A DNA stretch of 63,799 bases, filler included, from Chrysochromulina tobinii (taxonomy: Eukaryota), in the NCBI GenBank assembly GCA_001275005.1. It is 4 parts of 4 records of this genome, joined end to end, with 100 filler letters (N's around TTAATTAATTAA, not from the genome) between each part and the next. Parts side by side here need not be neighbours in the genome. Positions count along the whole stretch, not along the records: positions 27,453 to 42,723 come from JWZX01000450.1; 3 more parts are not named here. One strand, given 5' to 3'. Under the pieces are notes generated by a model. The model saw only the letters and a program-made list of their open reading frames with translations, had not been told where the DNA came from and searched no databases. Positions 29,587 to 53,065 of this stretch are shown here, piece by piece; position 1 is the stretch's first letter; every line of letters starts with the position of its first letter. The position numbers were made by a program, and so were the translations under genes.

Positions 29587-30139
29587 TATCACTTGGAAGA
29601 GGATAGCGTATAACGGTTCTGTACATGTTCTGTACCGGCAATGAAAGCTCCCCAGCGCAATTGATCCCTCATCAACCCTCATCAAAGGATATCACACGTA
29701 AAGCCGAAAAGGAAACTGAAACTCGATCCGAAGGACGAGCGTTACATTGTAAGGAGAGCGCCGCCCACGGCGCGGGCGCCGGCGTGCGGCGAGCGGCAGG
29801 TCCCCGGCCGCCGCCGCGCTCTAAATGGGAACAAGCCAACCGGCGCCTCGCCTGGAGAGTTCGGCGATCCGCGATCGGCGTCCATTCCTTGTTTCCTTCG
29901 CCTGACGAGAATTCGAGATGCTCGCGCGGCCGCGACGCGAGTAGCTGTAGCCGTTCCGTCAGGCGTCGAAGGTGCCCTACCGAAATCCTGGAATTCTCCC
30001 GGTGTCTTTTTACCGTTCAAAGTAGCTCGGTCCAAATCCGGTACGAAAGATGAAGCGCGGGGCTTCACGGAGCGAGCGTATAGCGAGCGACAGCACGAAA
30101 ACCGACGCCATCGCATCGGTGTTTTTCTCAGCCTTCATC

Positions 30140-32083
30140 ATGGGCTGCGGCGCGTCCAGGCCGACTGCCAATAAGTACGCCGACACTTCGTCAGAAGCGG
30201 TGTCTGGCGAAGCCTTCCGTTCGCCGGTCGGTAAGGAGAACACACCACCAAGAAGAACAAAAGACAACGAGGAAACCAGAGAACCCGGAGAGTCTTTGGA
30301 CACTTGTGAGCCCGAGGCGTTGGCGGCCGCTGCCGCCTTGGCGATTCGAGTTCAGGGCGCTCAGCGCGACGCGGACGCTCTTACGCTGGAGGCTGTGCTG
30401 CGCGACCCACAGATGGCGCGCTCGCTTCGCCGACACGCGTCGTTGTGCGGGCTAGCTAGTGGTGGTGCTAGAGGTGCTTCGGACGCAGAGAGCAACTTCC
30501 TGGTAGCTTCCAAGCTCTTTGACCTTCACGCCGCTCTTGCCGCCTCGGACGGTGGCGCTGCTTTTATCGCGGCGAGTGACCTAAAGGCATTTGCTAACTT
30601 TGGCGCGGTCGGGCTCTCGCCGATCGCCGCAGACGCAGCTCCCGTGGCTGTAGCAGCGGCGCTGAGCGGCTCGGCTGCGCCATTCCACGAAAAGCTTACG
30701 CCGGCGTTGGAGGCCATGCGTGCAGAGATTTTCTGCGCCGCTGCGGGCGCTTTGATAGAGCTGGAAAAGGGCGCAAGGAAGAAGCGTGTGGTGGTGCTCG
30801 GCGGCGGGTTCTGCGGCGCCATCGTCGCGCACGAGCTGACGCGCGGCGACAGCCAGGGGATTGACACCGAGGAGTTTGCAGTTACGCTCGTCGACACGAA
30901 GGAGTTTTTCGAGTTCACGCCCAGTGTGCTGCGACTCATGGCCGACGAGAAGGCCGAGGAGAAGGGCATGTGGAAGAAGTCAGCCATTGAGTTTGAAAAG
31001 ATCATGGGAGGGAAGGGCGAGCTCATTATCGGTTCGGCTGCGGCCGTGCGCAGGGACCACGTGCTGTTGGGCACGGCGGCGGGCGTCGCCTCGCGTATGG
31101 TTCCGTTTGATTACCTTGTGATCTGTACCGGCTCCTCGTACCAGTCCAACATCAAGACCGAGGGCACCTCAATCGAGGCGCGCAAACGCTCGTTCGCCCT
31201 TGAGCGCGAGCGCATCAAAACGGCGCCCGCCATCAATGTCGTTGGCAGTGGCCTAGTCGCCACCGAGCTCGCCTTCGATCTGAAGGCCTTTTTCCCTGAG
31301 AAGCCGATCGAGATGATCACACGCTCCCTCGGATTCCTGCCGCGTATCCCCGGCGCGAACGAGCGCGTGGCACCCCTTGCCTCCACGCATGGCATCAAAA
31401 TCAATCTCGGCGCGGAGGTGATGCATGTGGATGAGCAGGGCCGCGCGTCCACGCGCTCTGGTGACGCCAAGGGGCTGCCGAACGCGCGCAGCTTCTGGGC
31501 AACTGGGTACCAGCCCAACTCTGCCTTTCTCGCCGATGCGCGCACCGAAAGCATCATTTCGGGGATGCTCGACTCGGCTGGGTACGTGCGAACCATAGAG
31601 ACTTGCCAGCTCGACCACGCGGACCTGGGTCACATCTTTGCAGGCGGCGACATATGTCACGCGGGGGCCTTCACCGTCGGCGAGCGCACGATGAACGCGG
31701 CTATAAAGCACGGCTTCACGATCGTCAAGAACCTCCTCAAGCTTGTGGGCATGCGCGAGGGCAAGATGAAGAAGCCTTTGGCTCATTTCACGCCAGGCTC
31801 CGAATTCCTTGCCGTCTCCCTCGGCAACACCAATGGCCTTTTGTACGCCACCGATCCCAACACTGCCTCCCTCTTCTCCACTAAGGCCGCGCTGGAGGCA
31901 GAGAGGGGGCCGCTCAAGGATGCGGGGATAAAGGGTTGGATGGAGCTCAATCCCGCAGTGGACTATATCAAGTTCGTCATGATTCCCAGCGCCGTTTACA
32001 ACTATTTAGTGAACAACGATTATACCTCGATGGACCAGTTCTACGGGAAAGAGCAGGCTTACCTTACCATCGACGTCGTATAG
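30140..32083 (+). CDS. AIFM2/FSP1-like FAD-dependent NAD(P)H oxidoreductase with an acylated, RGS-like N-terminal extension
   Basis: VVVLGGGFCG, FEFTPSVLR, FDYLVICTGS, VVGSGLVATE and IFAGGD; N-terminus MGCGAS. Confidence 0.85.
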   Translation: MGCGASRPTANKYADTSSEAVSGEAFRSPVGKENTPPRRTKDNEETREPGESLDTCEPEALAAAAALAIRVQGAQRDADALTLEAVLRDPQMARSLRRHASLCGLASGGARGASDAESNFLVASKLFDLHAALAASDGGAAFIAASDLKAFANFGAVGLSPIAADAAPVAVAAALSGSAAPFHEKLTPALEAMRAEIFCAAAGALIELEKGARKKRVVVLGGGFCGAIVAHELTRGDSQGIDTEEFAVTLVDTKEFFEFTPSVLRLMADEKAEEKGMWKKSAIEFEKIMGGKGELIIGSAAAVRRDHVLLGTAAGVASRMVPFDYLVICTGSSYQSNIKTEGTSIEARKRSFALERERIKTAPAINVVGSGLVATELAFDLKAFFPEKPIEMITRSLGFLPRIPGANERVAPLASTHGIKINLGAEVMHVDEQGRASTRSGDAKGLPNARSFWATGYQPNSAFLADARTESIISGMLDSAGYVRTIETCQLDHADLGHIFAGGDICHAGAFTVGERTMNAAIKHGFTIVKNLLKLVGMREGKMKKPLAHFTPGSEFLAVSLGNTNGLLYATDPNTASLFSTKAALEAERGPLKDAGIKGWMELNPAVDYIKFVMIPSAVYNYLVNNDYTSMDQFYGKEQAYLTIDVV

Positions 32084-33017: not shown

Positions 33018-34118
33018 TCACTTCAGGTCGAACCGGAAATCGTCTGTCTCCCGGCTTCTTGTGGCGGCGAGCGCCTCGGCCAGCGCTACCGCCGACGTTC
33101 GCTTGCGCTCTCGCGCAGCAGCTGTCTGCGTTCCCTCAGCCTCGGTGGCCGCCTGCTGCTCACGCATCGTCTGCACCCACCAGGTAACGGTCTCGTCGAC
33201 CCTCGGCCCAAGGCCCTTGGGAATCCATCCTGCGAGCACCGACCGTGCGGCCTGGTCGCTCAGCGCACCACAGTCGACCGAGACGAGTCCCGTGTCGCGC
33301 GCTTCGTCAAAGCGGGGCTCGGGCACATGCACACCGTGTGAACGGAGGCTGTCGGCGACGAGGTGGACCAGCTCTTGCCAAGTGGGCGACTCGGCTGCGC
33401 AAATGTGCAGAGCGCGTGTTGAAAATGGCATCGGCAGTCGCAGAGCAGCGACAGCAGCGCTCGCCACATCGTCGGCGAACACGAGCGAGAGTGGTAGTGT
33501 GGCACCTGCATCGGGGTTTGTACCCGAGATGGCACTGCCGATCGTGCGCCCCTTAGCCAGCTTGAGAAAGAGCTTCTCCTGTCTTCCTGTATTTTCGTGC
33601 GGGCCGAGCACGTCCGGCAGTCGCAGCGCCAGCCAGTCGAGTCTGCCGCCGTGCCGCCGCAGTGCCTTCTCAGCGGCGAGCTTGTTGTTGCCATACTCAT
33701 CGCGCCGCGCGCGCTCAGCAGAATGCGTGGTATCACTCGCTTCGAGGAGACGCATGCGTTCGTCAAACACAAAGGCTGACGGTTCGCAGGCCATGTAAAC
33801 TGAGTCGGTGCTGATAAATATGTACCTCTTCAAATGCACGGCTGCAGCAAGTATCGGCTGCACGTCGTCCTCATCGAAGGCGAGAAGATCAATCACGGCA
33901 TCCCAGCCGCAAGAAAGGACGGCCTGGAGCTGATCTGGCCGCCGCCGCCGATCCACCTTCCGGTGCGCAACTGCGTCGCCAAAGGGATTGGGCGTTTGGC
34001 CACGGTTGCAAATGGTCACGACGTGGCCGGCATCGAGGAGTGCGCGTACAGTAGCTCGGCCGATGAATGAGGTGCCGCCGATGACGAGGACCGACGAAGA
34101 GCTCTGGGGCTCCTGCAT
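33018..34118 (-). CDS. NAD-dependent epimerase/dehydratase (atypical SDR)
   Basis: LVIGGTSFIG, NRG, YIFISTDSVY and YGNNK. Confidence 0.88.
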   Translation of the reverse strand: MQEPQSSSSVLVIGGTSFIGRATVRALLDAGHVVTICNRGQTPNPFGDAVAHRKVDRRRRPDQLQAVLSCGWDAVIDLLAFDEDDVQPILAAAVHLKRYIFISTDSVYMACEPSAFVFDERMRLLEASDTTHSAERARRDEYGNNKLAAEKALRRHGGRLDWLALRLPDVLGPHENTGRQEKLFLKLAKGRTIGSAISGTNPDAGATLPLSLVFADDVASAAVAALRLPMPFSTRALHICAAESPTWQELVHLVADSLRSHGVHVPEPRFDEARDTGLVSVDCGALSDQAARSVLAGWIPKGLGPRVDETVTWWVQTMREQQAATEAEGTQTAAARERKRTSAVALAEALAATRSRETDDFRFDLK

Positions 34119-34281
34119 ATGTAATCGGAGTTAACAGAATTTCTTCGAGACCTCGAATCTTCCTCTTACAGTACCCCTGTTGTTTTAGAACCGGGTGAGG
34201 AGCCTGTCAAACCGGGGATTTTCTGGATTTACGAACCCTTGGCAGTTTTCCTGGCGCCGATTCAAAGCTTCCGTTCTGTCC

Positions 34282-35814
34282 ATGGTCAACTCGGCCTGGG
34301 CTGTCCAGTCGAGCACGGCGCTCGTCCAACTCATCGAGTCCAAGGCGCAGGCCGCGTACGTGGCCGCCTGCGAGACAACTGCCGAAGGCACGCCGCCGCC
34401 CGAAGCACCCGTGCACATCTCCGACCCGGTCGACGCGGCGCTCAAGCTCCTCATGGACGAGGACATTCTGGCGGCGGCCGGCGGCGCAAACGCGGCTGAG
34501 GACTTTGTGGCCGTGTCCACGAAGCTGGGTACGGCTTATCCGCACCCGGCGCTGGTCAAGGCACTCCAGGCCTGCGCTACAAAGCCCATGCTCAGCTTGC
34601 GCGGCTGGCAGTGCGACCTTCCCAGCCTGACTGCGCTGCTCGTGGTGCTCGGTAAGCATCCGAGCATCCGCTCGGCGAGCTTCTGGCAGTGTGGCCTAAA
34701 CGACCGGGCGTTAACACTGCTCGAGCGCGCGCTGCCCGCCTCCGTTGAGAGCCTCGCCTTCGAGGGCACGGCCGCCGAGGGCGCAGCCGTCGAGGGGCTG
34801 TCGACGTTGCCATCGGTCACGAGCCTCGCGCTACGCTGCGCGTCGCTCACGAGCATGCCGCCGCCGCTTGCGGACGCGCTGCGCGCCAACGAGACCCTCA
34901 CCGCCCTCTCCCTCTTCGGCAACCCGCTCGGCGACATGGGAGCGCTCGAGCTGCTCGAAGCGCTGCGCTCTCACCCGACGTTGCTCACGCTCAACCTGGG
35001 GCGTTGCGGGCTGACGGACACGAGTGCTCACGCGGTGCTCGAGATGGTCAGTGACCCGCCCAAGGAGGATAAGGATGAGGAGGGCGAGGTGCCCGAGGCG
35101 GGGGCGATGTGCCTCAACGTCGCCATCCTCCCCAACCGCACGCTGACCGCTCTGAACTTAGGCTACAATCGAATCGGCACGGAGGGGCGGCTGGCGCTCG
35201 AGGCGGCGCAGGCGGCCTCGCCGGGCCTCGCACGCCTCGAACTGGTAGGCAACCCATGCCTCACATGCGGTCCGACCGCCGGGCTGGGCGCCGAGCCGCG
35301 CCGGCTCATCAAAGCGAGTTGGGCGGCGCTCGCGGCGCGTGAGGGTGGCGCCGAGGTGGTGGTTGCCGGGGTGTGCGCGGCTGCGCTCGCCCAGGTGCCC
35401 GAGGCACTACCGATCGTCGGGTTTCCGGTCGCCGAGGGCGCCGATACGAAGGAGGCGCCTGAGTTTGCAGGGTGGGAGGGCCTCGCTCCGTTGGGTGCGA
35501 TCGGTGCCTCCATCCTCGGCAAGCTCGTGGCTGAGCTCGACCATCCGAAACGACTGCGGGCGACGCTGGTCTCCGAGCTCGGCGTCGTGTGCGCCTCGCG
35601 CGGCCTGACGCCCGGTGCGTCCTTTGATAAGTTTGGCGAGGCGCTCATCGCTGGCATCTCCGCGGCGCTCGGGAGCCAGCTGTCGGAAGATGCGAAGACC
35701 GCGTGGCGCGACGCGTACGCCGACGCGGCCCGGTGCATGCAGACGGCCTACTTGCCGAGCCAGCTTGCGGCCGCCGCCATGGCCGCCGCTGCCGCTGCCG
35801 CGCCGGCCGAGTGA
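34282..35814 (+). CDS. Leucine-rich repeat (RI-like) protein with C-terminal globin-fold domain
   Basis: LRRs (LTALSLFGNPLGDMG, LTALNLGYNRIG) plus globin A/G/H helix patterns (LIKASW, FDKFGEALI, AKTAWRDAY). Confidence 0.8.
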   Translation: MVNSAWAVQSSTALVQLIESKAQAAYVAACETTAEGTPPPEAPVHISDPVDAALKLLMDEDILAAAGGANAAEDFVAVSTKLGTAYPHPALVKALQACATKPMLSLRGWQCDLPSLTALLVVLGKHPSIRSASFWQCGLNDRALTLLERALPASVESLAFEGTAAEGAAVEGLSTLPSVTSLALRCASLTSMPPPLADALRANETLTALSLFGNPLGDMGALELLEALRSHPTLLTLNLGRCGLTDTSAHAVLEMVSDPPKEDKDEEGEVPEAGAMCLNVAILPNRTLTALNLGYNRIGTEGRLALEAAQAASPGLARLELVGNPCLTCGPTAGLGAEPRRLIKASWAALAAREGGAEVVVAGVCAAALAQVPEALPIVGFPVAEGADTKEAPEFAGWEGLAPLGAIGASILGKLVAELDHPKRLRATLVSELGVVCASRGLTPGASFDKFGEALIAGISAALGSQLSEDAKTAWRDAYADAARCMQTAYLPSQLAAAAMAAAAAAAPAE

Positions 35815-36065
35815 GACTGTGAGACTGAGGGACGCAGGAGAGAAGGTCGGTGTGTGAGAGGCGGAGCAGGAGAGACGGTACCATGGACGGTACATCTCGA
35901 CATGTCATTTCAAACCCAGCGGGTTCGCTTGTGGCTAAGAACGGGTGCGGAGGGTTGTGCTTCTCGGAGCGCCGTGCCGGCGTGCGAGTTCTTTCTTCGG
36001 ACGAGTGTGTCGGTCAACAATCCCCGACCCGAGTGGCCGGACGACCACTGTCCGGCGGGTGGTTC

Positions 36066-39000
36066 ATGCCAAAGGACCCGCCGCAAAGGCCGAAGAAGCC
36101 GGGCGTCAAGTACGATCTCACTACATGCGCGTGCCTGCTCTCATGCTTCGACTTCCAGCAGCGTGGCTTTGTGGACCGCGACGACTGGAAGCGCGGCACG
36201 GAGATGATGCAGCTCTCAGAGATGGGTGAGGACGAGGGTCTGTGGGCCAAGGTGCTCGCCACCTACGGTGGTGAGATCGAGGGCTGTGTGGCGATCGCCC
36301 GGCTGCAGGACGTGGTACCGATGGATCCACGCATCTCGCTGATGATGCGAGCAATGGTAGCCTCGGTCGCGACTGTCGAGGAACGGCTGGCGCGGCAGGC
36401 GCGGCGCACTGCCGACCAGGGCGCGAGCCGCGCTAATCGCATCATCCTCAACATGCGCCGCAAGATCATCGAACCGGTATACCACGCATGGGTCGAGCTC
36501 GTCTCCTCTAAGAAGCGGATAGGCCAGCGCGCCGCGAAGGCCGCATTCAATGGCTCGCTCGGCCGAGCATGGCGCCAATGGAGCAGCGTGGCCGAGGCGC
36601 TCGCGGAGACTCGGCAGCGGCTGCGTCGATTCGGCGCGCGCTTCGTCCAGCAGGGTCTCGGCCGCGCATGGAACGCGTGGCTCGCGGTGGCCGAGCAGCG
36701 GGCGCGCATGCAAGCGATCGGCCGGCGAATGCGCATCCAGGGCCTGACGCGGGCCTTCAACGCGTGGGTCGAGAAGGTCGGGGAGGGCGCCGCGAAACAG
36801 GCGCAGATGCGCAAGGCCCTCGGGCGGCTCGTGTACCGAGAGCTCATCGGCTGCTGGGAGAAATGGACGGGCGTGGCGGCCGCAGCACGCCGTAAGGCAA
36901 CGCAGCTGCGGAAAGTCGCGCGCCGTTTCGGCCATGCGAGGGAGGGCGCCGCCTTCAACAGCTGGCTCGCGGTCCTGGCGGAGAACCGGCTGATGCGGAA
37001 GGTGCTACGGCGCGCGCTGCACGCGGGAGTCGGGCGCGCCTTTGGCCGCTGGTACGAGTGCGTCGAGGAACGCATTCGGCTGCGCGAGCTCGCGATGCGT
37101 ATCGGCCGGCGGATGATGAACCGAGTGCAGGCGGCCACCTTCGATTCGTGGTACGAGTGCATCCAGGTGTCCATTGAGAAGCGCGAGGCGACGCTGCGCA
37201 AGGCGATCGTGCAGATCCACTACAAGTGGGTCGCCATGTGCTTCGGCGCGTGGTCCGGCCTGAGCCAAGGGGTTACCGACCGCCGCTCGAAGGCCCTCGG
37301 CGGCGCGCTTGGACGGATGCGCATGCGCGCAGCCGCGCTGTGCTTCGAGGCGTGGGCCGAGTCGTACCGGCGCGCGGGTGCGCTGCGGGCCAAGTACGCG
37401 ACGCGCTTCGTAGCCGCAGGGCTTGGGGCCGCCTACCGCACATGGGCCGAGACGTCGCGCGAGCTCAAGCGGCTCAAGTCCCGGCTCAAGAAGATTGCGA
37501 TCCGTATGGCGCGGCGCGTCGAAGTGCTCGTGCTGACCGAGTGGCACGCGTTCGTCAAGGAAGCGCACGGGTACATGCGCGTCGCGCTCGCTCGCTGGGT
37601 CAACGGAGAGCTCAATGTCGCCTTCCTGCGCTGGCACGAGCACGCCTCCGGTGCAAGTCGCATGCGGCGCCTCTTGCGCAAGTCGCTCGGTCGTTACGCG
37701 AACGCGCTGCTCAGCAAGTGCTTCGTTGCGTGGGTGGGCATGGCGGTCGCCGAGGTGTCGCGGCGTGAGACGCTGACGCGCAGCGCCCTAACCCTCCTCT
37801 CTGGCAAGCGCGAGCTGCTGCTCAAGAACCGCTTCGTCCACTGGCACGACCTCGTGCGCGGGGTCAAGGAGCGCCGTAACGGGCTGCTGCGCAAGGCGAT
37901 CCTGCGGCTGCGCAATCAGCAGCTCCTCAGTGGCTGGAACCTGTGGATGGAGCACCACGAGGCGTGCCGGGGGATGCGCAGAGCGGCGATCGCGTGGAGG
38001 CAGGCCGCAGCGGCCCGAGCCTTCCGATCGTGGGTACACAAGGCTGAGAGTGCGCGCCGGCTGCGCCAGCTCGGTACGGCCGTGCTTGCCCGCTGGCGCG
38101 GCGGCGTACTGACCAAGGTGTTCCTGGCCTGGGCCTCTCACATCGGGTCCGAGCGCACGCGGCGCGAGCAGTCGCAGCTCCGCGCGCTCGCCGCCCTCTC
38201 CGGACGTTATGAGATGCTCATGCAGCTGCAGTTCTGCGCCTGGCGCGAATACGCGCGTGCGGCCCACCATCGGCGCTTGGAGCTCGCCACGAAGGTCTTC
38301 AGGCGCTACGCGAACCAGGCCGTGACACGCTGCTTCCTCGCGTGGCAGGCGCTCGCGGCGTCCGCTCGTCAGATGTCCAACGACAAGATGGCGCGCGCAC
38401 TCGCTTTGCTGTCCGACCGCAACGAGCTCTTGCTGCGCGCGGCCTTCGTGGCTCTGCGCCGTGCGATCGCAAAGCAGCAGGACGAGCGGCAGGCGCTCGT
38501 GCAGAAGTCGCTCATGCGCATGAAGTATGGCGTGCTGCATGCCGCCTTCGAGGAGTGGCGCGCGGCTTATCTTGAAGCCAAGCGCAAGCGCGTCGCCGCC
38601 GGTGGTGGTAGCGGCGGCGGTGGCGCCGGCTTCGATCGAGCAGCCAAAGCGGAGCTCGCGGCAGCGCGCGCGGATGCAGCGCACGCGGCGCAGCAAGCGG
38701 CGGAGCAGGCGCGACGCAACGACGAGCTGCAGGCGCGCATCACGCAGCTCGAGGCGCTCGTGCTCGGAATGCTCCCAGTACTCCCTCCAGAGACGCCGCC
38801 GGCTCCGGCGCACGCACCCGTTGCGCCCGAGCCTGTGCCCGAGCCGCTGCCGTGTGTCGACCTCGCACCAATGTTTGCGTCGCTGCGCGGCTTCGGGCAG
38901 GTGATCGGGGCCACCCTTGGCGCAATGCACGGTCTCACGCAGGCAGTGAGTGAGGTTCGTCTGGCCTCGGAGGTCGGCGGGGGCACGGGCAGCACCGGCA

Positions 39001-40232
39001 GCAGACGCGGAGGGAGGTCGTGGGAGCTCTCCGAGGTACCGCCGACAGCGACGGCGGGCGAGGCAGCAGCGTGGGTGTCGAATCGCCTCTCAGTACTCGA
39101 GAGCGAGTTGCATGGGCAGCTGGACAGTGCCCTCCACACGCTGCGCCACTCGGAGCGTACTCTCGAGGATGGGCTACGCAACGTGCGCGTGAGTCAGCTG
39201 GGCACGCTCGAGGTGCCGCTCCACCCGCTCCCCATCGGCTCCGTCGATGCAGCCGCCTCGCACATACTCATGAGCGAGGTGCGCTCACTGCAGACGCAGC
39301 TCGCAACGACGCGCCGCGAGCTTAAGGACGTCATCCGCACCAAGGCGTACCGGTACGAGATGGCCTACATGCGCACCGAGCTCCATTCCTTCCTCTTCGG
39401 CGGTGGCCCTGCGGGTTCCGCCGCCGCCATCGGCGCTTCTGAGCTGATCCACGACACAACCGTCGCGCGACAGGCTCTGCTCGCCGCGGACGAGTCCCGG
39501 GCGCTGTCCCGGGCGCTCTCAAGGGTGGATAGCGAGAGTGTCACGGGGGGGATCGAGGACGAAGCAGCCGCAGGTGGGGACACGTCGAGGAGCTCTCAAC
39601 AAGCGTTGCAGGGAATGCGTGGCATCGAGGAGGAGGAACTCTTGCCGCCGCGCCTCTCGCCACGCGCGAGCAGCCACCAGAGCCACGTGCCTTCACCACG
39701 CCCCTCGCGTCCGGCATCTGCATCGCTCAAGGGGCGGGCCGCTCCCCCTCCGACGCCCACCGCCCGAGACGCCAGCGCCACACAGTTCTTCGAGATGCCG
39801 CCGTACCACTACGACGCCGATCTCGGCGGCGCCGGCTCTGTCGCCGCGCGCTTTGGCATCGGCGTGAGCGGCGCGGCCTCGGCGAGGGAGGGCGGCGCCG
39901 GCTCCGGCTGCCGCTCAGTAGGAGGGCCCGCGCCGCCCACGCGCCCATCACGCCCTCGATCCGCCGTCGTGGGCGTCTCGCCTCGCATGAAGGCCCTCGT
40001 TAGCGGGGAGCCCCTCGGCGCGTACGCAGGCGGCGGCATGCCCATGAGCAGCGTGGCAGCCGACGGCCAGTTCGAACCGGATCCGAGCGATGCGGTCGGT
40101 ATGGCTTGGGCCTCGCGCGGGCACTTTGCCCAACAGCTTGAGCCACGCCAGGTTGTTGCTGGCCGTGGGTCGAACGGGCGCCTCGTCTCTTCGAGGCCGC
40201 CGAGTGCGGGCGTCCGGCCAGCGCCTGCGTAG
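36066..40232 (+). CDS. Sfi1-like repeat (putative centrin-binding) protein with N-terminal EF-hand-like motif
   Basis: About 20 repeats of LxxAF/WxxW spaced roughly 30-40 aa apart; FDFQQRGFVDRDDW near the N-terminus. Confidence 0.7.
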   Translation: MPKDPPQRPKKPGVKYDLTTCACLLSCFDFQQRGFVDRDDWKRGTEMMQLSEMGEDEGLWAKVLATYGGEIEGCVAIARLQDVVPMDPRISLMMRAMVASVATVEERLARQARRTADQGASRANRIILNMRRKIIEPVYHAWVELVSSKKRIGQRAAKAAFNGSLGRAWRQWSSVAEALAETRQRLRRFGARFVQQGLGRAWNAWLAVAEQRARMQAIGRRMRIQGLTRAFNAWVEKVGEGAAKQAQMRKALGRLVYRELIGCWEKWTGVAAAARRKATQLRKVARRFGHAREGAAFNSWLAVLAENRLMRKVLRRALHAGVGRAFGRWYECVEERIRLRELAMRIGRRMMNRVQAATFDSWYECIQVSIEKREATLRKAIVQIHYKWVAMCFGAWSGLSQGVTDRRSKALGGALGRMRMRAAALCFEAWAESYRRAGALRAKYATRFVAAGLGAAYRTWAETSRELKRLKSRLKKIAIRMARRVEVLVLTEWHAFVKEAHGYMRVALARWVNGELNVAFLRWHEHASGASRMRRLLRKSLGRYANALLSKCFVAWVGMAVAEVSRRETLTRSALTLLSGKRELLLKNRFVHWHDLVRGVKERRNGLLRKAILRLRNQQLLSGWNLWMEHHEACRGMRRAAIAWRQAAAARAFRSWVHKAESARRLRQLGTAVLARWRGGVLTKVFLAWASHIGSERTRREQSQLRALAALSGRYEMLMQLQFCAWREYARAAHHRRLELATKVFRRYANQAVTRCFLAWQALAASARQMSNDKMARALALLSDRNELLLRAAFVALRRAIAKQQDERQALVQKSLMRMKYGVLHAAFEEWRAAYLEAKRKRVAAGGGSGGGGAGFDRAAKAELAAARADAAHAAQQAAEQARRNDELQARITQLEALVLGMLPVLPPETPPAPAHAPVAPEPVPEPLPCVDLAPMFASLRGFGQVIGATLGAMHGLTQAVSEVRLASEVGGGTGSTGSRRGGRSWELSEVPPTATAGEAAAWVSNRLSVLESELHGQLDSALHTLRHSERTLEDGLRNVRVSQLGTLEVPLHPLPIGSVDAAASHILMSEVRSLQTQLATTRRELKDVIRTKAYRYEMAYMRTELHSFLFGGGPAGSAAAIGASELIHDTTVARQALLAADESRALSRALSRVDSESVTGGIEDEAAAGGDTSRSSQQALQGMRGIEEEELLPPRLSPRASSHQSHVPSPRPSRPASASLKGRAAPPPTPTARDASATQFFEMPPYHYDADLGGAGSVAARFGIGVSGAASAREGGAGSGCRSVGGPAPPTRPSRPRSAVVGVSPRMKALVSGEPLGAYAGGGMPMSSVAADGQFEPDPSDAVGMAWASRGHFAQQLEPRQVVAGRGSNGRLVSSRPPSAGVRPAPA

Positions 40233-41867: not shown

Positions 41868-42595
41868 TGTGAGACGATTAGTTCCTCGACTTTTATTTGT
41901 GAGACGATGGAACTCATGGTTTCGGTTGTGAGACGATTTAGTTGCGTTTGAGAGACGATAGTTGTTCGGTTGCGTTTGTGAGACGTTTTCATTTTTACTG
42001 TTGCAAGTCCAACCGCGTCGTCTCACAACCATCAGTTCGTCGAACTCCATCGTCTCACAAATGCAACAACATCGTCTCACAAACGCAACTAAATCGTCTC
42101 ACAAACGCCAGTTCGTTGAACCGCGTCGTCTCACAACATCGTCTCACAACCGGCAGTTCGTCGAACTCCATCGTCTCACAATAATGCAACTAAATCGTCT
42201 CACAAACGCAACTGAATCGTCTCACATACGCAACTCAATCGTCTCACAACATCGTCTCACAACCGGCAGTTCGTCGAACCCCATCGTCTCACAAATGCAA
42301 CTAAATCGTCTCACAAACGCAACTGAATCGTCTCACATACGCAACTAAATCGTCTCACAACATCGTCTCACAACCGGCACTTCGTCGTCTCACAAATGCA
42401 AGTTCATCGTCTCACAAATGCAACTAAATCGTCTCACAAACGCCAGTTCATCGTCTCACAAACGCTAGTTCGTCGAACTGCATCGTCTCACAGACGCTTG
42501 TTCATCCGAACGCCAGTTCATCGTCTCACAAACGCTAGTTCGTCGAACTGCATCGTCTCACAGACGCTTGTTCATCCGAACTGCATCGTCTCACA
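41868..42595. repeat. Bipolar array of 29 CGTCTCACA boxes (5 reverse, 24 forward)
   Basis: Counted by eye in the sequence; recurring unit lengths of 13, 22 and 32 bp with a ~112 bp higher-order repeat. Confidence 0.92.
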
Positions 42596-51379: not shown

Positions 51380-52111
51380 ATGAACGACCAGACGTATACG
51401 CGATCGACGATCTGGGAGGCTGACTTGGACCACCGCTTCTGCCCGTACGCCACGTCGCGCGCCTTCAACGCGGCTGAAGGTGCCACCGTTGTTGAAAAGT
51501 TTGGCCAGTCATTTGTCTGGGACGAGTCGCTGCACTGGACCGCTGAAGAGCTCGAGCCGCTTAGGCTCGTGGGCGATGAGCCCATGGATAGAGTCCTCGA
51601 CTCACTAGACCCTGCCGCAGGCACGGACGTATTCAGCGAACTCGTCGATGCAGCCAAGAAGCAGCCCAACGGCGAGGCGGCTCTGTTGCTGCAAGACGCC
51701 AGCCAAGGGGCGGCGGAGTGGGTCGACTGGGACCTGATCGCGAAGGGCCAGGCCGTCTTCGTGCGGCACATGCCAGCGGCCGGGGTCGTGCTGTATAACA
51801 TGTCCCTCGTCGGCGGTTTCTCGGCGCCCAAGATCACCGCCGTGCTCGAGCAGAGCGGATATTTGACCGCCGCGCCGCACGCGGTGATGCGCCGACTGTT
51901 TGAGACTGGCAGGCTGCTCGTGGACAGTTGTGCGACCAAGGATGCGCTGCGCCCCTTCGAGGCCGGCTGGGTGTCGGCGCTGCGCGTGCGCATCCTGCAT
52001 GCCAAGGTGCGACGGCGCCTCTTGCGCCGGCAGAAGCAGAGCGGTCTGTCCTCCTCGTCGTCCTCCTCCGCCTCTCAAAGATCAAAACGCGACTCCGCCG
52101 CCCCTGCCACT

Positions 52112-52144
<33 letters not shown>

Positions 52145-53065
52145 GCCGCCGCCTCATCATTGGAGGGCGCAGAGAGCACATGGGACGTGGCGGCGCTAGG
52201 CGTACCCATCAACCAGGAAGACATGGCCGTCACTCTCCTCGCCTTTTCGTATAACGTCCTTTATGGCCTCGAGTTGATCCTTGGTGAGCCTCTCACCGAA
52301 CCGGACCAGCTGGCGTACCTGCACCTGTGGCGCTATCTCGGGCACCTTCTCGGCCTGCGGGGCGAGTGGAACCCGTGCACGCCGCCACCCGGCGTCGCTC
52401 CCATCGCGTACGCCAAGGCTTTCTTTGAGAGCATCATCGTGCATCAGCTGCATCCAAACGAGCTGTCGATACGAGTGGCACACCACATGCTGCGGGCACC
52501 CGCCGCTGCACGGCGCGCCCGTCGCGCGGCCGCGCCGTGCGCTATGCCCGTCAGCGGCGGCGATGCCAAGGGCGCTGGTACGGTGCTGCTCTGCGATGAT
52601 CACGCCTTGCATAAGGCACCGAGCCTGAGGACCGACCTCGCCGAAGCGATCGCTTTCACGCACAACGCGCAGCTCACGCGCCTCCTTGTGGGCGACGCGC
52701 TCGGTGACGCGCTGCAGCTCCCGTTCGACCCTGCCGCGCGGCGCGCCGCGCGCCGCCGGCTTCGCTTCTTACGCCTGTACGCATGGGCATCCGAGAGCTG
52801 GTTGATTGGCGGCGCCATCGAGCGGCTCCATCGGTGTGTGCTCCGAACCGTTCACCAGAACTGCCTCTGATGAGCTCACCTACTAATGACCTACTGATGA
52901 CCTACTGATGACCTACTAATGACCTACTGATGACCTCTCTCACCAGAATTGCCTCTGATGACCTCTCTGAGTGCCTCCGTCATCAGGTTTGCGCTTCGAG
53001 CCATCCAATGGGCAGAGGGGCCGCAGCTGTTCGTGATGAAGCCGGGAGGCCGCTGCCCAGTCTAA
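51380..53065 (+). CDS. MpaB / rubber-oxygenase-like (DUF2236) heme oxygenase domain protein (exons 51380-52833, 52987-53065)
   Basis: RRLFET, RVRILHAKVR, GVPINQEDM..TLLAFS and HLWRYLGHLLG. Confidence 0.85.
52834..52986 (+). repeat. Intron with 11-bp CTGATGACCTA repeats
   Basis: CG|GTGTGT...CATCAG|G gives RLHRFALRAIQW...*. Confidence 0.75.

What the first reader, a model, noticed from the sequence alone, without database searches (positions are those of the whole stretch)
34282..35814. LRR-globin fusion with Cys at the apparent proximal (F8) histidine position
The C-terminal ~150 aa follow a 3/3 globin pattern, but the usual LGxxHxxxG reads LGVVCASRG (Cys codon 35590-35592) and no distal His is evident. 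It could be a thiolate-ligated or heme-less globin sensor attached to RI-like LRRs, an architecture I do not recognise.
Basis: partly seen in the sequence, partly recalled or inferred. Interest (0 to 1): 0.7.

Follow-up and report, generated by a model that had tools for sequence, protein, structure and literature searches.

The report
Heme-less globin fused to LRR scaffold
This intron-free gene of a eukaryotic microbe joins leucine-rich repeats to a myoglobin-like domain that lacks the heme-binding histidine in every relative examined; the cysteine in its place is not conserved, so the domain likely binds no heme and likely serves as a docking module.

Summary
The fusion is real. One 510-aa ORF (34282-35814) carries RI-like LRRs (about 71-331) and a complete 3/3 globin (332-492; model pLDDT 91.9; Z 18.6, rmsd 2.3 A over 145 residues to Glycera haemoglobin). 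An RNA-library contig spans both parts with no intron. Cys437 (35590-92) sits at F8, E7 is Leu and CD1 is Val. The thiolate idea fails its own test, but not by a His in the orthologs: among 19 family sequences F8 is Ala 7, Cys 5, Leu 3, Ile 3, Gly 1, His 0, and CD1 is Phe in 0 of 19. Cys marks the query's subclade plus one more row. The whole family lost the heme ligand yet keeps the domain as conserved as the LRR core (43% vs 46%). The domain is far closer to heme globins than to RsbR or phycocyanin (Z 9.8, 9.3), so it is likely an independently derived non-heme globin. Relatives with the same LRR module and no globin exist. Best reading: an LRR scaffold with a heme-less docking domain (0.6). 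A flagellar, LRRC71-like role is recalled and untested. New variant of a known kind; interest 0.45.

The parts
34282..35814 (+). Single-exon CDS, 510 aa: LRR module plus heme-less 3/3 globin
   Evidence: RNA-library contigs without joints
34273..35934 (+). Span covered by RNA-library contigs (approximate transcript; contigs show neither strand nor true ends)
   Evidence: contigs of 4 runs start at 34273-34285 and end at 35901-35934
34282..34491 (+). N-terminal helical extension (aa 1-70) with conserved Trp6
   Evidence: helices 12-32, 49-57 and 60-65; W in 19 of 22 rows, 3 gaps
34492..35274 (+). RI-like LRR module (aa 71-331): atypical first repeats (RGW, FWxCG), then canonical repeats
   Evidence: Pfam LRR_6; VIA Z 17-18.6 to DRC5, NOD2, NLRPs and RI
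35053..35130 (+). Acidic, low-confidence loop (aa 258-283) inserted before the last two LRRs
   Evidence: pLDDT under 50 at 263-281; variable length in the alignment
35248..35274 (+). GNPCLTCGP (aa 323-331): LRR C-cap and junction to globin helix A
   Evidence: G, N, P in 21 of 22 rows; C326 in 20 of 22; C329 in 18 of 22, Ala in 3; globin-less P0212 ends just after GNPC
35275..35757 (+). 3/3 myoglobin-like globin domain (aa 332-492), helices A-H colinear, with a variable CD insertion
35416..35418 (+). CD1 position: Val379 in place of Phe
   Evidence: aligned to Phe of 1hbg; V14 A3 S2 of 19
35491..35493 (+). E7 (distal) position: Leu404
   Evidence: L12 V3 A3 M1 of 19, no His
35590..35592 (+). 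F8 (proximal) position: Cys437, not conserved
   Evidence: A7 C5 L3 I3 G1 H0 of 19
35593..35604 (+). A-S-R-G (aa 438-441), the family's conserved motif just after F8
   Evidence: A 18 of 19, R 17 of 19, G 18 of 19
35758..35811 (+). Ala-rich C-terminal helix

Best explanation
The gene encodes an RI-like leucine-rich-repeat protein fused to a myoglobin-type globin whose F8 position holds no histidine in any relative examined, so the globin likely binds no heme and likely works as a rigid docking or spacer domain on an LRR protein-binding scaffold. Shown: the ORF, the two domains, the F8, E7 and CD1 residues, and their spread in the family. Predicted: the 3/3 fold. Inferred: a heme globin of the F/myoglobin-like lineage was attached behind the GNPC cap of an existing LRR protein, then lost His F8 and Phe CD1. 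F8 became an ordinary buried residue, free to be Ala, Leu, Ile, Cys or Gly, while the helix-packing residues and the A-S-R-G motif stayed under constraint. The Cys is one such substitution, fixed in the query's subclade. Guessed (about 0.4): the scaffold sits in the flagellar axoneme, from a recalled and untested likeness of the LRR module to LRRC71.
For: F8: His 0 of 19, Cys 5 of 19, non-ligating Ala/Leu/Ile/Gly 14 of 19. CD1 Phe 0 of 19; E7 His 0 of 19. 8 of the 19 have no His anywhere in the globin region. Over all 95 stored, highly redundant globin rows F8 is A43 L16 C14 I11 G6 and gap 5. Two further members from the independent HMMER search have Ala. On the tree, four of the five Cys rows form the query's clade (100/100), P0010 lies outside it, and the outer branches under midpoint rooting carry Ala. 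Domain retention: mean pairwise identity 43% for the globin and 46% for the LRR core in 14 sequences, with invariant W347, P422, G434, A438, S439, G452, L455 and W475. Globin dN/dS 0.40/1.21 against L009 and pN/pS 0.37 (8 synonymous, 8 non-synonymous) against a related strain. Origin: the 60 best of 102 PDB hits of the globin profile are all heme globins. Structure Z is 18.6 (Glycera Hb) and 18.1 (neuroglobin) against 9.8 (stressosome) and 9.3 (allophycocyanin). Globin-less relatives: P0212 (40% identity over aa 42-326, ending after GNPC), P0228, and P0239/L010 (stop codon seen in L010). Precedent: the syNOS pseudoglobin binds no heme and bridges domains at a dimer interface (PMC12922734, passages).
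Against: No binding was measured and no model coordinates were available, so a closed pocket is not shown. Against the distant L005 and L008 the globin's dN/dS is weak (0.70/0.91 and 0.66/0.73). CD1 Phe survives in one lineage (2 of 84 filled rows). The LRR-module tree does not place the globin-less relatives outside the family, so gain versus loss of the globin is unresolved. The C-termini of P0212 and P0228 could not be checked on DNA. No call names an LRRC71 or any characterised ortholog. The axonemal LRR hits (DRC5 Z 18.6) tie with NOD2 and NLRPs.
Confidence: 0.6

Rival explanations
1. Heme-less sensor: the old heme pocket would bind another small hydrophobic ligand (a fatty acid or lipid, or a tetrapyrrole) through the conserved Arg440 and would signal to the LRR, as proposed for RsbR-type non-heme globins.
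For: R at F8+3 in 17 of 19 and small residues (Ala, Gly, Cys) at F8 in 13 of 19. RsbR-family globins are described as binding a fatty acid through an Arg analogous to the proximal His (PMC8717448, passages). Conserved Trp398 at E1 in 12 of 19.
Against: F8 is Leu or Ile in 6 of 19 and B10 varies (C, A, V, L, I), which fits a filled core better than a conserved site. The Arg lies three residues after F8, not on it. No output domain was found.
Confidence: 0.25
2. Thiolate heme in the query's subclade: Cys437 would have re-created an axial ligand and would bind ferric heme, as engineered H93C myoglobin does.
For: Cys is exactly at F8 and is kept across the query's clade (P0001, P0027, P0002, P0004; 58-94% identity) and in P0010/L009. 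The fold overlays heme globins at 2.3 A. Engineered H93C myoglobin is a heme protein (PMC11583245, abstract).
Against: 14 of 19 family sequences cannot ligate iron at F8, so the ancestral job needs no ligand there. The Cys members also lack CD1 Phe (Val in all five) and any distal His. In H93C myoglobin the ferrous Fe-S bond is weak and is replaced by the distal His64 (abstract), which this protein lacks. Cys is a common buried substitute for Ala (general knowledge).
Confidence: 0.08
3. Artefact or decaying remnant: a misjoined ORF, or a functionless globin relic.
For: The Pfam hit covers only helices E-H (aa 410-481). Some database entries end off-frame (P0063-65, P0268).
Against: The fusion is colinear in 19 sequences down to about 36-45% identity. 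One RNA-library contig spans both domains. Conservation of the globin equals that of the LRR core.
Confidence: 0.04

Closest known systems
F-family / myoglobin-like 3/3 heme globins (Glycera monomeric Hb, neuroglobin, Hell's Gate globin I, flavohaemoglobin globin domain)
   Same: Full A-H fold (Z 18.6, rmsd 2.3); best sequence matches (E 7e-11); A12 Trp, C2 Pro, H8 Trp and the LG..x...G F-helix pattern kept.
   Different: No His at F8 or E7 and no Phe at CD1; fused behind LRRs; variable acidic CD insertion.
Non-heme globins: RsbR-N, phycocyanin, photoglobin (PMC8717448, passages) and the syNOS pseudoglobin (PMC12922734, passages)
   Same: Globin fold without the heme histidines, kept inside a multidomain protein.
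   Different: Structurally much further from RsbR (Z 9.8) and allophycocyanin (Z 9.3) than from heme globins, so likely a separate loss; eukaryotic; LRR partner. Photoglobin and the syNOS pseudoglobin were not compared directly.
Allomyces macrogynus LRR-T1 globin chimera (PMC3287990, passages)
   Same: RI-like LRRs followed by a C-terminal globin in a flagellated eukaryote.
   Different: That globin is a truncated 2/2 (T1) domain in a 1129-aa protein, accepted under criteria that require His F8; this one is 3/3 and lacks His.
Androglobin (PMC13331133, passages)
   Same: Chimeric globin of flagellated eukaryotes, haptophytes included.
   Different: Androglobin is circularly permuted, with an IQ motif and a calpain domain; this globin is colinear, has no calpain domain and is fused to LRRs.
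LRRC71 (PMC12979858, passages; PMC13279179, abstract, section 4 and passages)
   Same: Recalled, untested likeness of the atypical first repeats and of the insertion before the last repeats. GFP-LRRC71 co-localises with HYDIN in the ciliary central lumen, and the knockout impairs sperm motility.
   Different: No globin is reported for LRRC71 in the passages read; orthology could not be tested.
Guillardia theta globin EKX43967.1 (PMC4101818, passages)
   Same: Algal 3/3 globin without His F8.
   Different: A single 275-aa protein called defective; no LRR and no conserved family shown.

Membership tests
Heme-binding globin (myoglobin-fold criteria of PMC3287990 / PMC4101818) | 3/3 fold with helices A-H | tested here: met
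   Model pLDDT 91.9; Z 18.6 over 145 residues of 1hbg
Heme-binding globin | His at F8 | tested here: not met
   Cys437 in the query; His in 0 of 19 and 0 of 90 filled rows
Heme-binding globin | Phe at CD1 | tested here: not met
   Val379; Phe in 0 of 19 and 2 of 84 filled rows
Heme-binding globin | Binds heme | not testable with these tools
   Needs spectroscopy
Thiolate-ligated heme protein | Conserved axial Cys across orthologs | tested here: not met
   Cys in 5 of 19
RI-like LRR proteins | Tandem beta-alpha repeats matching RI-type profiles and structures | tested here: met
   LRR_6 in 23 of 23 rows; RI, DRC5 and NLR matches
RsbR-N / phycocyanin non-heme globins | Closer to these families than to heme globins | tested here: not met
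   Z 9.8 and 9.3 against 18.6; the 60 best sequence hits are heme globins
Photoglobin | Phycocyanin-like pocket residues and B12-domain context | tested here: inconclusive
   Not listed in any search; no direct comparison was made
Androglobin | Circularly permuted globin with IQ motif and calpain domain | tested here: not met
   Colinear match to 1hbg residues 1-147; Pfam shows only LRR and Globin
Allomyces-type LRR-T1 globin | 2/2 truncated globin | tested here: not met
   Truncated Hbs Z 9.3 against 18.6 for 3/3 globins; full A and F helices
LRRC71 orthologs | Reciprocal best match or clade with LRRC71 | not testable with these tools
   No chain so named among the listed PDB hits; the top 150 of the representative search were family members and many-repeat LRR proteins

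The most novel reading that the evidence does not exclude
A family of algal flagellar central-apparatus proteins (LRRC71-like) acquired a second ciliary globin, independent of androglobin, and stripped it of heme; the query's subclade then re-evolved a Cys axial ligand at F8, giving a natural thiolate-ligated globin. The first half alone (a flagellar heme-less globin) has about 0.35; the full statement needs both halves.
Probability: 0.05. Interest if true: 0.85.

Novelty: new variant of a known kind. Interest (0 to 1): 0.45.

Why it matters
Globin censuses that demand His F8 (the criterion in PMC3287990 and PMC4101818) would discard this family. Yet it keeps a full myoglobin-type fold across at least about 14 distinct lineages of sequence. 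The non-heme globin families named in the papers read are bacterial or phycobiliproteins and structurally distant from heme globins. This one is eukaryotic and still close to heme globins, so it is a natural series (F8 = Ala, Gly, Cys, Leu, Ile) for asking what a globin fold does without heme and whether a natural Cys-F8 can bind it. If the LRR module is LRRC71-like, it would be a second globin tied to cilia.

Tried and rejected
(1) Complex prediction of the LRR part (1-332) with the globin part (333-510): no answer, score 0.00; no evidence either way. (2) Cytochrome-c-like CxxCH or a metal site at GNPCLTCGP: no His follows and C329 is Ala in 3 of 22; read as the LRR C-cap. (3) A shifted register with His elsewhere in helix F: His at F8+3 only in the P0070 lineage, and His421 in only 3 of 19. 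(4) ESM Atlas gave only generic LRR_6 clusters. (5) NCBIfam gave nothing for the query. (6) Prokaryote genomes: 1 generic LRR match among 36 pattern hits. Viral contigs: 0 of 33. These are pattern-limited scans, not proof of absence. (7) The representative search with the N-terminal LRR profile was swamped by many-repeat proteins; only 7 of 139 new rows matched the atypical module, so distant orthologs below rank 150 were not seen. (8) The LRR-module tree was too weak to order globin gain and loss. (9) No whole genome is held for the window. (10) Earlier scan findings: none. (11) Paper searches for this architecture listed no description of a His-less 3/3 globin-LRR family. The library lacks most subscription journals, and 'Microbial eukaryote globins' (2013) was seen only as a reference-list entry. 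No supplements were read. The T. brucei central-apparatus preprint PMC12154619 had no occurrence of globin or LRR. The C1orf92 search gave nothing useful.

Full report
Setting. The window is eukaryotic: its long ORFs include a DENN-domain protein, a SET-domain protein, a mitochondrial carrier, ATP12 and a eukaryotic aspartyl protease (10 of 17 ORFs had a Pfam hit). GC is about 55-70%. The stretch occurs in mixed-culture and freshwater RNA runs. I take the organism to be a haptophyte-like microalga; that is my inference and no call names it. No whole genome is held.

The observation. ORF 34282-35814 gives 510 aa. Pfam finds LRR_6 (E 2.3e-11) and Globin above its cut-off (28 against 22 bits). 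Cys437, TGC at 35590-35592, aligns with the proximal His of Hell's Gate globin I and Glycera haemoglobin. The same alignments give Leu404 at E7 and Val379 at CD1. AlphaFold2 folds the whole protein at pLDDT 85.6 and the globin alone at 91.9. The globin overlays Glycera Hb over 145 of 147 residues (Z 18.6, rmsd 2.3) and neuroglobin (Z 18.1), far above the stressosome RsbR (9.8), allophycocyanin (9.3) and truncated haemoglobins (9.3) (Foldseek agrees). I laid 4 of the 19 listed runs. Their contigs cover about 34273-35934 and not the flanks, show no joint and no change at the Cys codon, and one 1661-nt contig spans both domains with no difference. Contigs cannot prove transcription, but the gene-bounded cover in four studies fits an unspliced transcript.

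The family. Three word-seeded searches, a DNA scan and one HMMER search of 1.84 billion representatives gave a family of roughly 480-660-aa proteins from genome and metagenome records, almost all unnamed. Alignment A2 has 23 rows. I dropped P0063, P0064 and P0065 (tails that leave the frame before helix F) and P0073 (an unrelated LRR protein), leaving 19, which include the query and four close pairs. In these, F8 is Ala 7, Cys 5, Leu 3, Ile 3, Gly 1, His 0; E7 is Leu 12, Val 3, Ala 3, Met 1; CD1 is Val 14, Ala 3, Ser 2; and 8 of the 19 have no His in the whole globin region. Over all 95 stored globin rows, which are highly redundant, F8 is never His, and CD1 is Phe in 2 of 84 filled rows, one lineage. 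Two more members, P0160 and P0236, have Ala. On a 21-row tree, four Cys rows form the query's clade (100/100), the fifth (P0010) lies outside it, and the outer branches under midpoint rooting carry Ala. So the Cys is neither a private change nor a family ligand.

The domain is kept. Mean pairwise identity in 14 sequences is 43% for the globin and 46% for the LRR core, and W347, G356, P422, G434, A438, S439, G452, L455, A474 and W475 are among the invariant globin columns. Codon counts give dN 0.40 and dS 1.21 against L009, and pN/pS 0.37 on 16 changes against a related strain. Against the distant L005 and L008 the ratios are only 0.70/0.91 and 0.66/0.73, so the codon evidence is modest.

Origin. 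The 60 best of 102 PDB sequence hits of the globin-only profile are all heme globins, led by Glycera Hb, Hell's Gate globin I, neuroglobin and flavohaemoglobins. With the structural ranking, this points to a heme loss independent of the RsbR and phycocyanin families. The LRR module also occurs without a globin. P0212 is 40% identical over aa 42-326 and ends 17 residues after GNPC. P0228 and P0239/L010 carry the same atypical first repeats and end after the LRRs, with the stop seen in L010. The GNPC motif is therefore best read as the LRR C-cap, with the globin attached behind it. A 24-row tree of the LRR module did not resolve whether the globin-less forms are ancestral or have lost the domain. 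Neighbouring ORFs of the homolog in L008 differ from those in the window by their translations.

How it likely works. The LRR solenoid is a protein-binding surface (general knowledge). The globin, without an iron ligand or the CD1 Phe, likely has a filled or shrunken pocket and acts as a rigid domain that docks on a partner or spaces a complex. A precedent is the syNOS pseudoglobin, which binds no heme and bridges domains at the dimer interface (PMC12922734, passages). A globin-like domain of ciliate COXTT2 also mediates a supercomplex contact (PMC10060162, passages; its heme status is not given there). I give this reading 0.6. A heme-less ligand sensor using Arg440 (17 of 19), by analogy with the RsbR-type Arg (PMC8717448, passages), gets 0.25. 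A thiolate heme confined to the Cys members gets 0.08: engineered H93C myoglobin is a heme protein, but its ferrous Fe-S bond gives way to the distal His (PMC11583245, abstract), which is absent here. An artefact or relic gets 0.04.

Where it acts is open. From memory, the atypical first repeats and the charged insertion before the last repeats resemble LRRC71. GFP-LRRC71 co-localises with HYDIN in the ciliary central lumen (PMC12979858, passages), and its loss impairs sperm motility (PMC13279179, abstract and section 4). I could not test this: no listed PDB hit is named LRRC71, the Atlas gave generic LRR clusters, and the representative search was swamped by many-repeat proteins. Axonemal DRC5 tops the structural list for the LRR part (Z 18.6) but ties with NOD2 (18.1). 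Two relatives begin with MAPKK (P0064, P0228), which I recall as common in flagellar proteins. I put a flagellar role at about 0.4.

Comparison with what is known. An LRR-globin chimera is in print for the fungus Allomyces, but with a 2/2 T1 globin (PMC3287990, passages). A single His-less algal globin was noted in Guillardia theta (PMC4101818, passages). Androglobin is present in haptophytes but is permuted and calpain-fused (PMC13331133, passages). A review lists non-heme globins without this family in the passages read (PMC7475203). Five searches listed no description of it. The library lacks most subscription journals, the 2013 review of microbial eukaryote globins was not seen, and no supplements were read. 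It fails membership of the heme-binding globins (His F8 and Phe CD1 not met) while having their fold.

Verdict. Observation confirmed; interpretation partly supported (heme-less yes, thiolate unlikely). It is a conserved, apparently undescribed eukaryotic non-heme globin family fused to an LRR scaffold: a new variant of a known kind, interest 0.45.

Noticed in passing
window 36066-40232 (+): The downstream 1388-aa ORF has 23 [FLYW]xxW motifs, mostly 29-37 residues apart, and no Pfam hit. It resembles Sfi1-type centrin-binding repeats (recalled). RNA contigs of the LRR-globin gene run over the upstream ATG at 35883 and another begins at 36050, which favours the start at 36066.
   Followed up: partly
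P0011 (loop equivalent to window 35053-35130): One homolog has a long insert in the acidic loop, and Pfam finds a C2 domain in 1 of the 23 rows (E 2.9e-5), most likely this insert.
   Followed up: no
L010:3-1139; P0212, P0228, P0239: Globin-less relatives of the same atypical LRR module.
   Followed up: partly
window 33018-34118 (-) and 34282 (+): An NAD-dependent epimerase-like gene lies head to head with the LRR-globin gene, 163 bases apart: a possible bidirectional promoter.
   Followed up: no
protein collection, cluster of P0001: The 90% cluster mixes this protein with the unrelated neighbouring 1388-1449-aa protein, a clustering fault; it hides the cluster from length-limited searches.
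   Followed up: yes
window 30050-32083 (+): A 677-aa pyridine nucleotide-disulphide oxidoreductase (Pyr_redox_2, E 1.7e-22) with an unannotated N-terminal part of about 240 aa.
   Followed up: no
window 51380-52870 (+): An mpaB/Lcp rubber-oxygenase-like catalytic domain (E 9.4e-15).
   Followed up: no
window about 41940-42350: ORF translations show repeated short units, suggesting a tandem-repeat stretch.
   Followed up: no
L012:128-309 (also L011, L013, L014): A homolog present as a short exon flanked by AG and GT in repeat-rich DNA, so the gene has introns in another species.
   Followed up: partly
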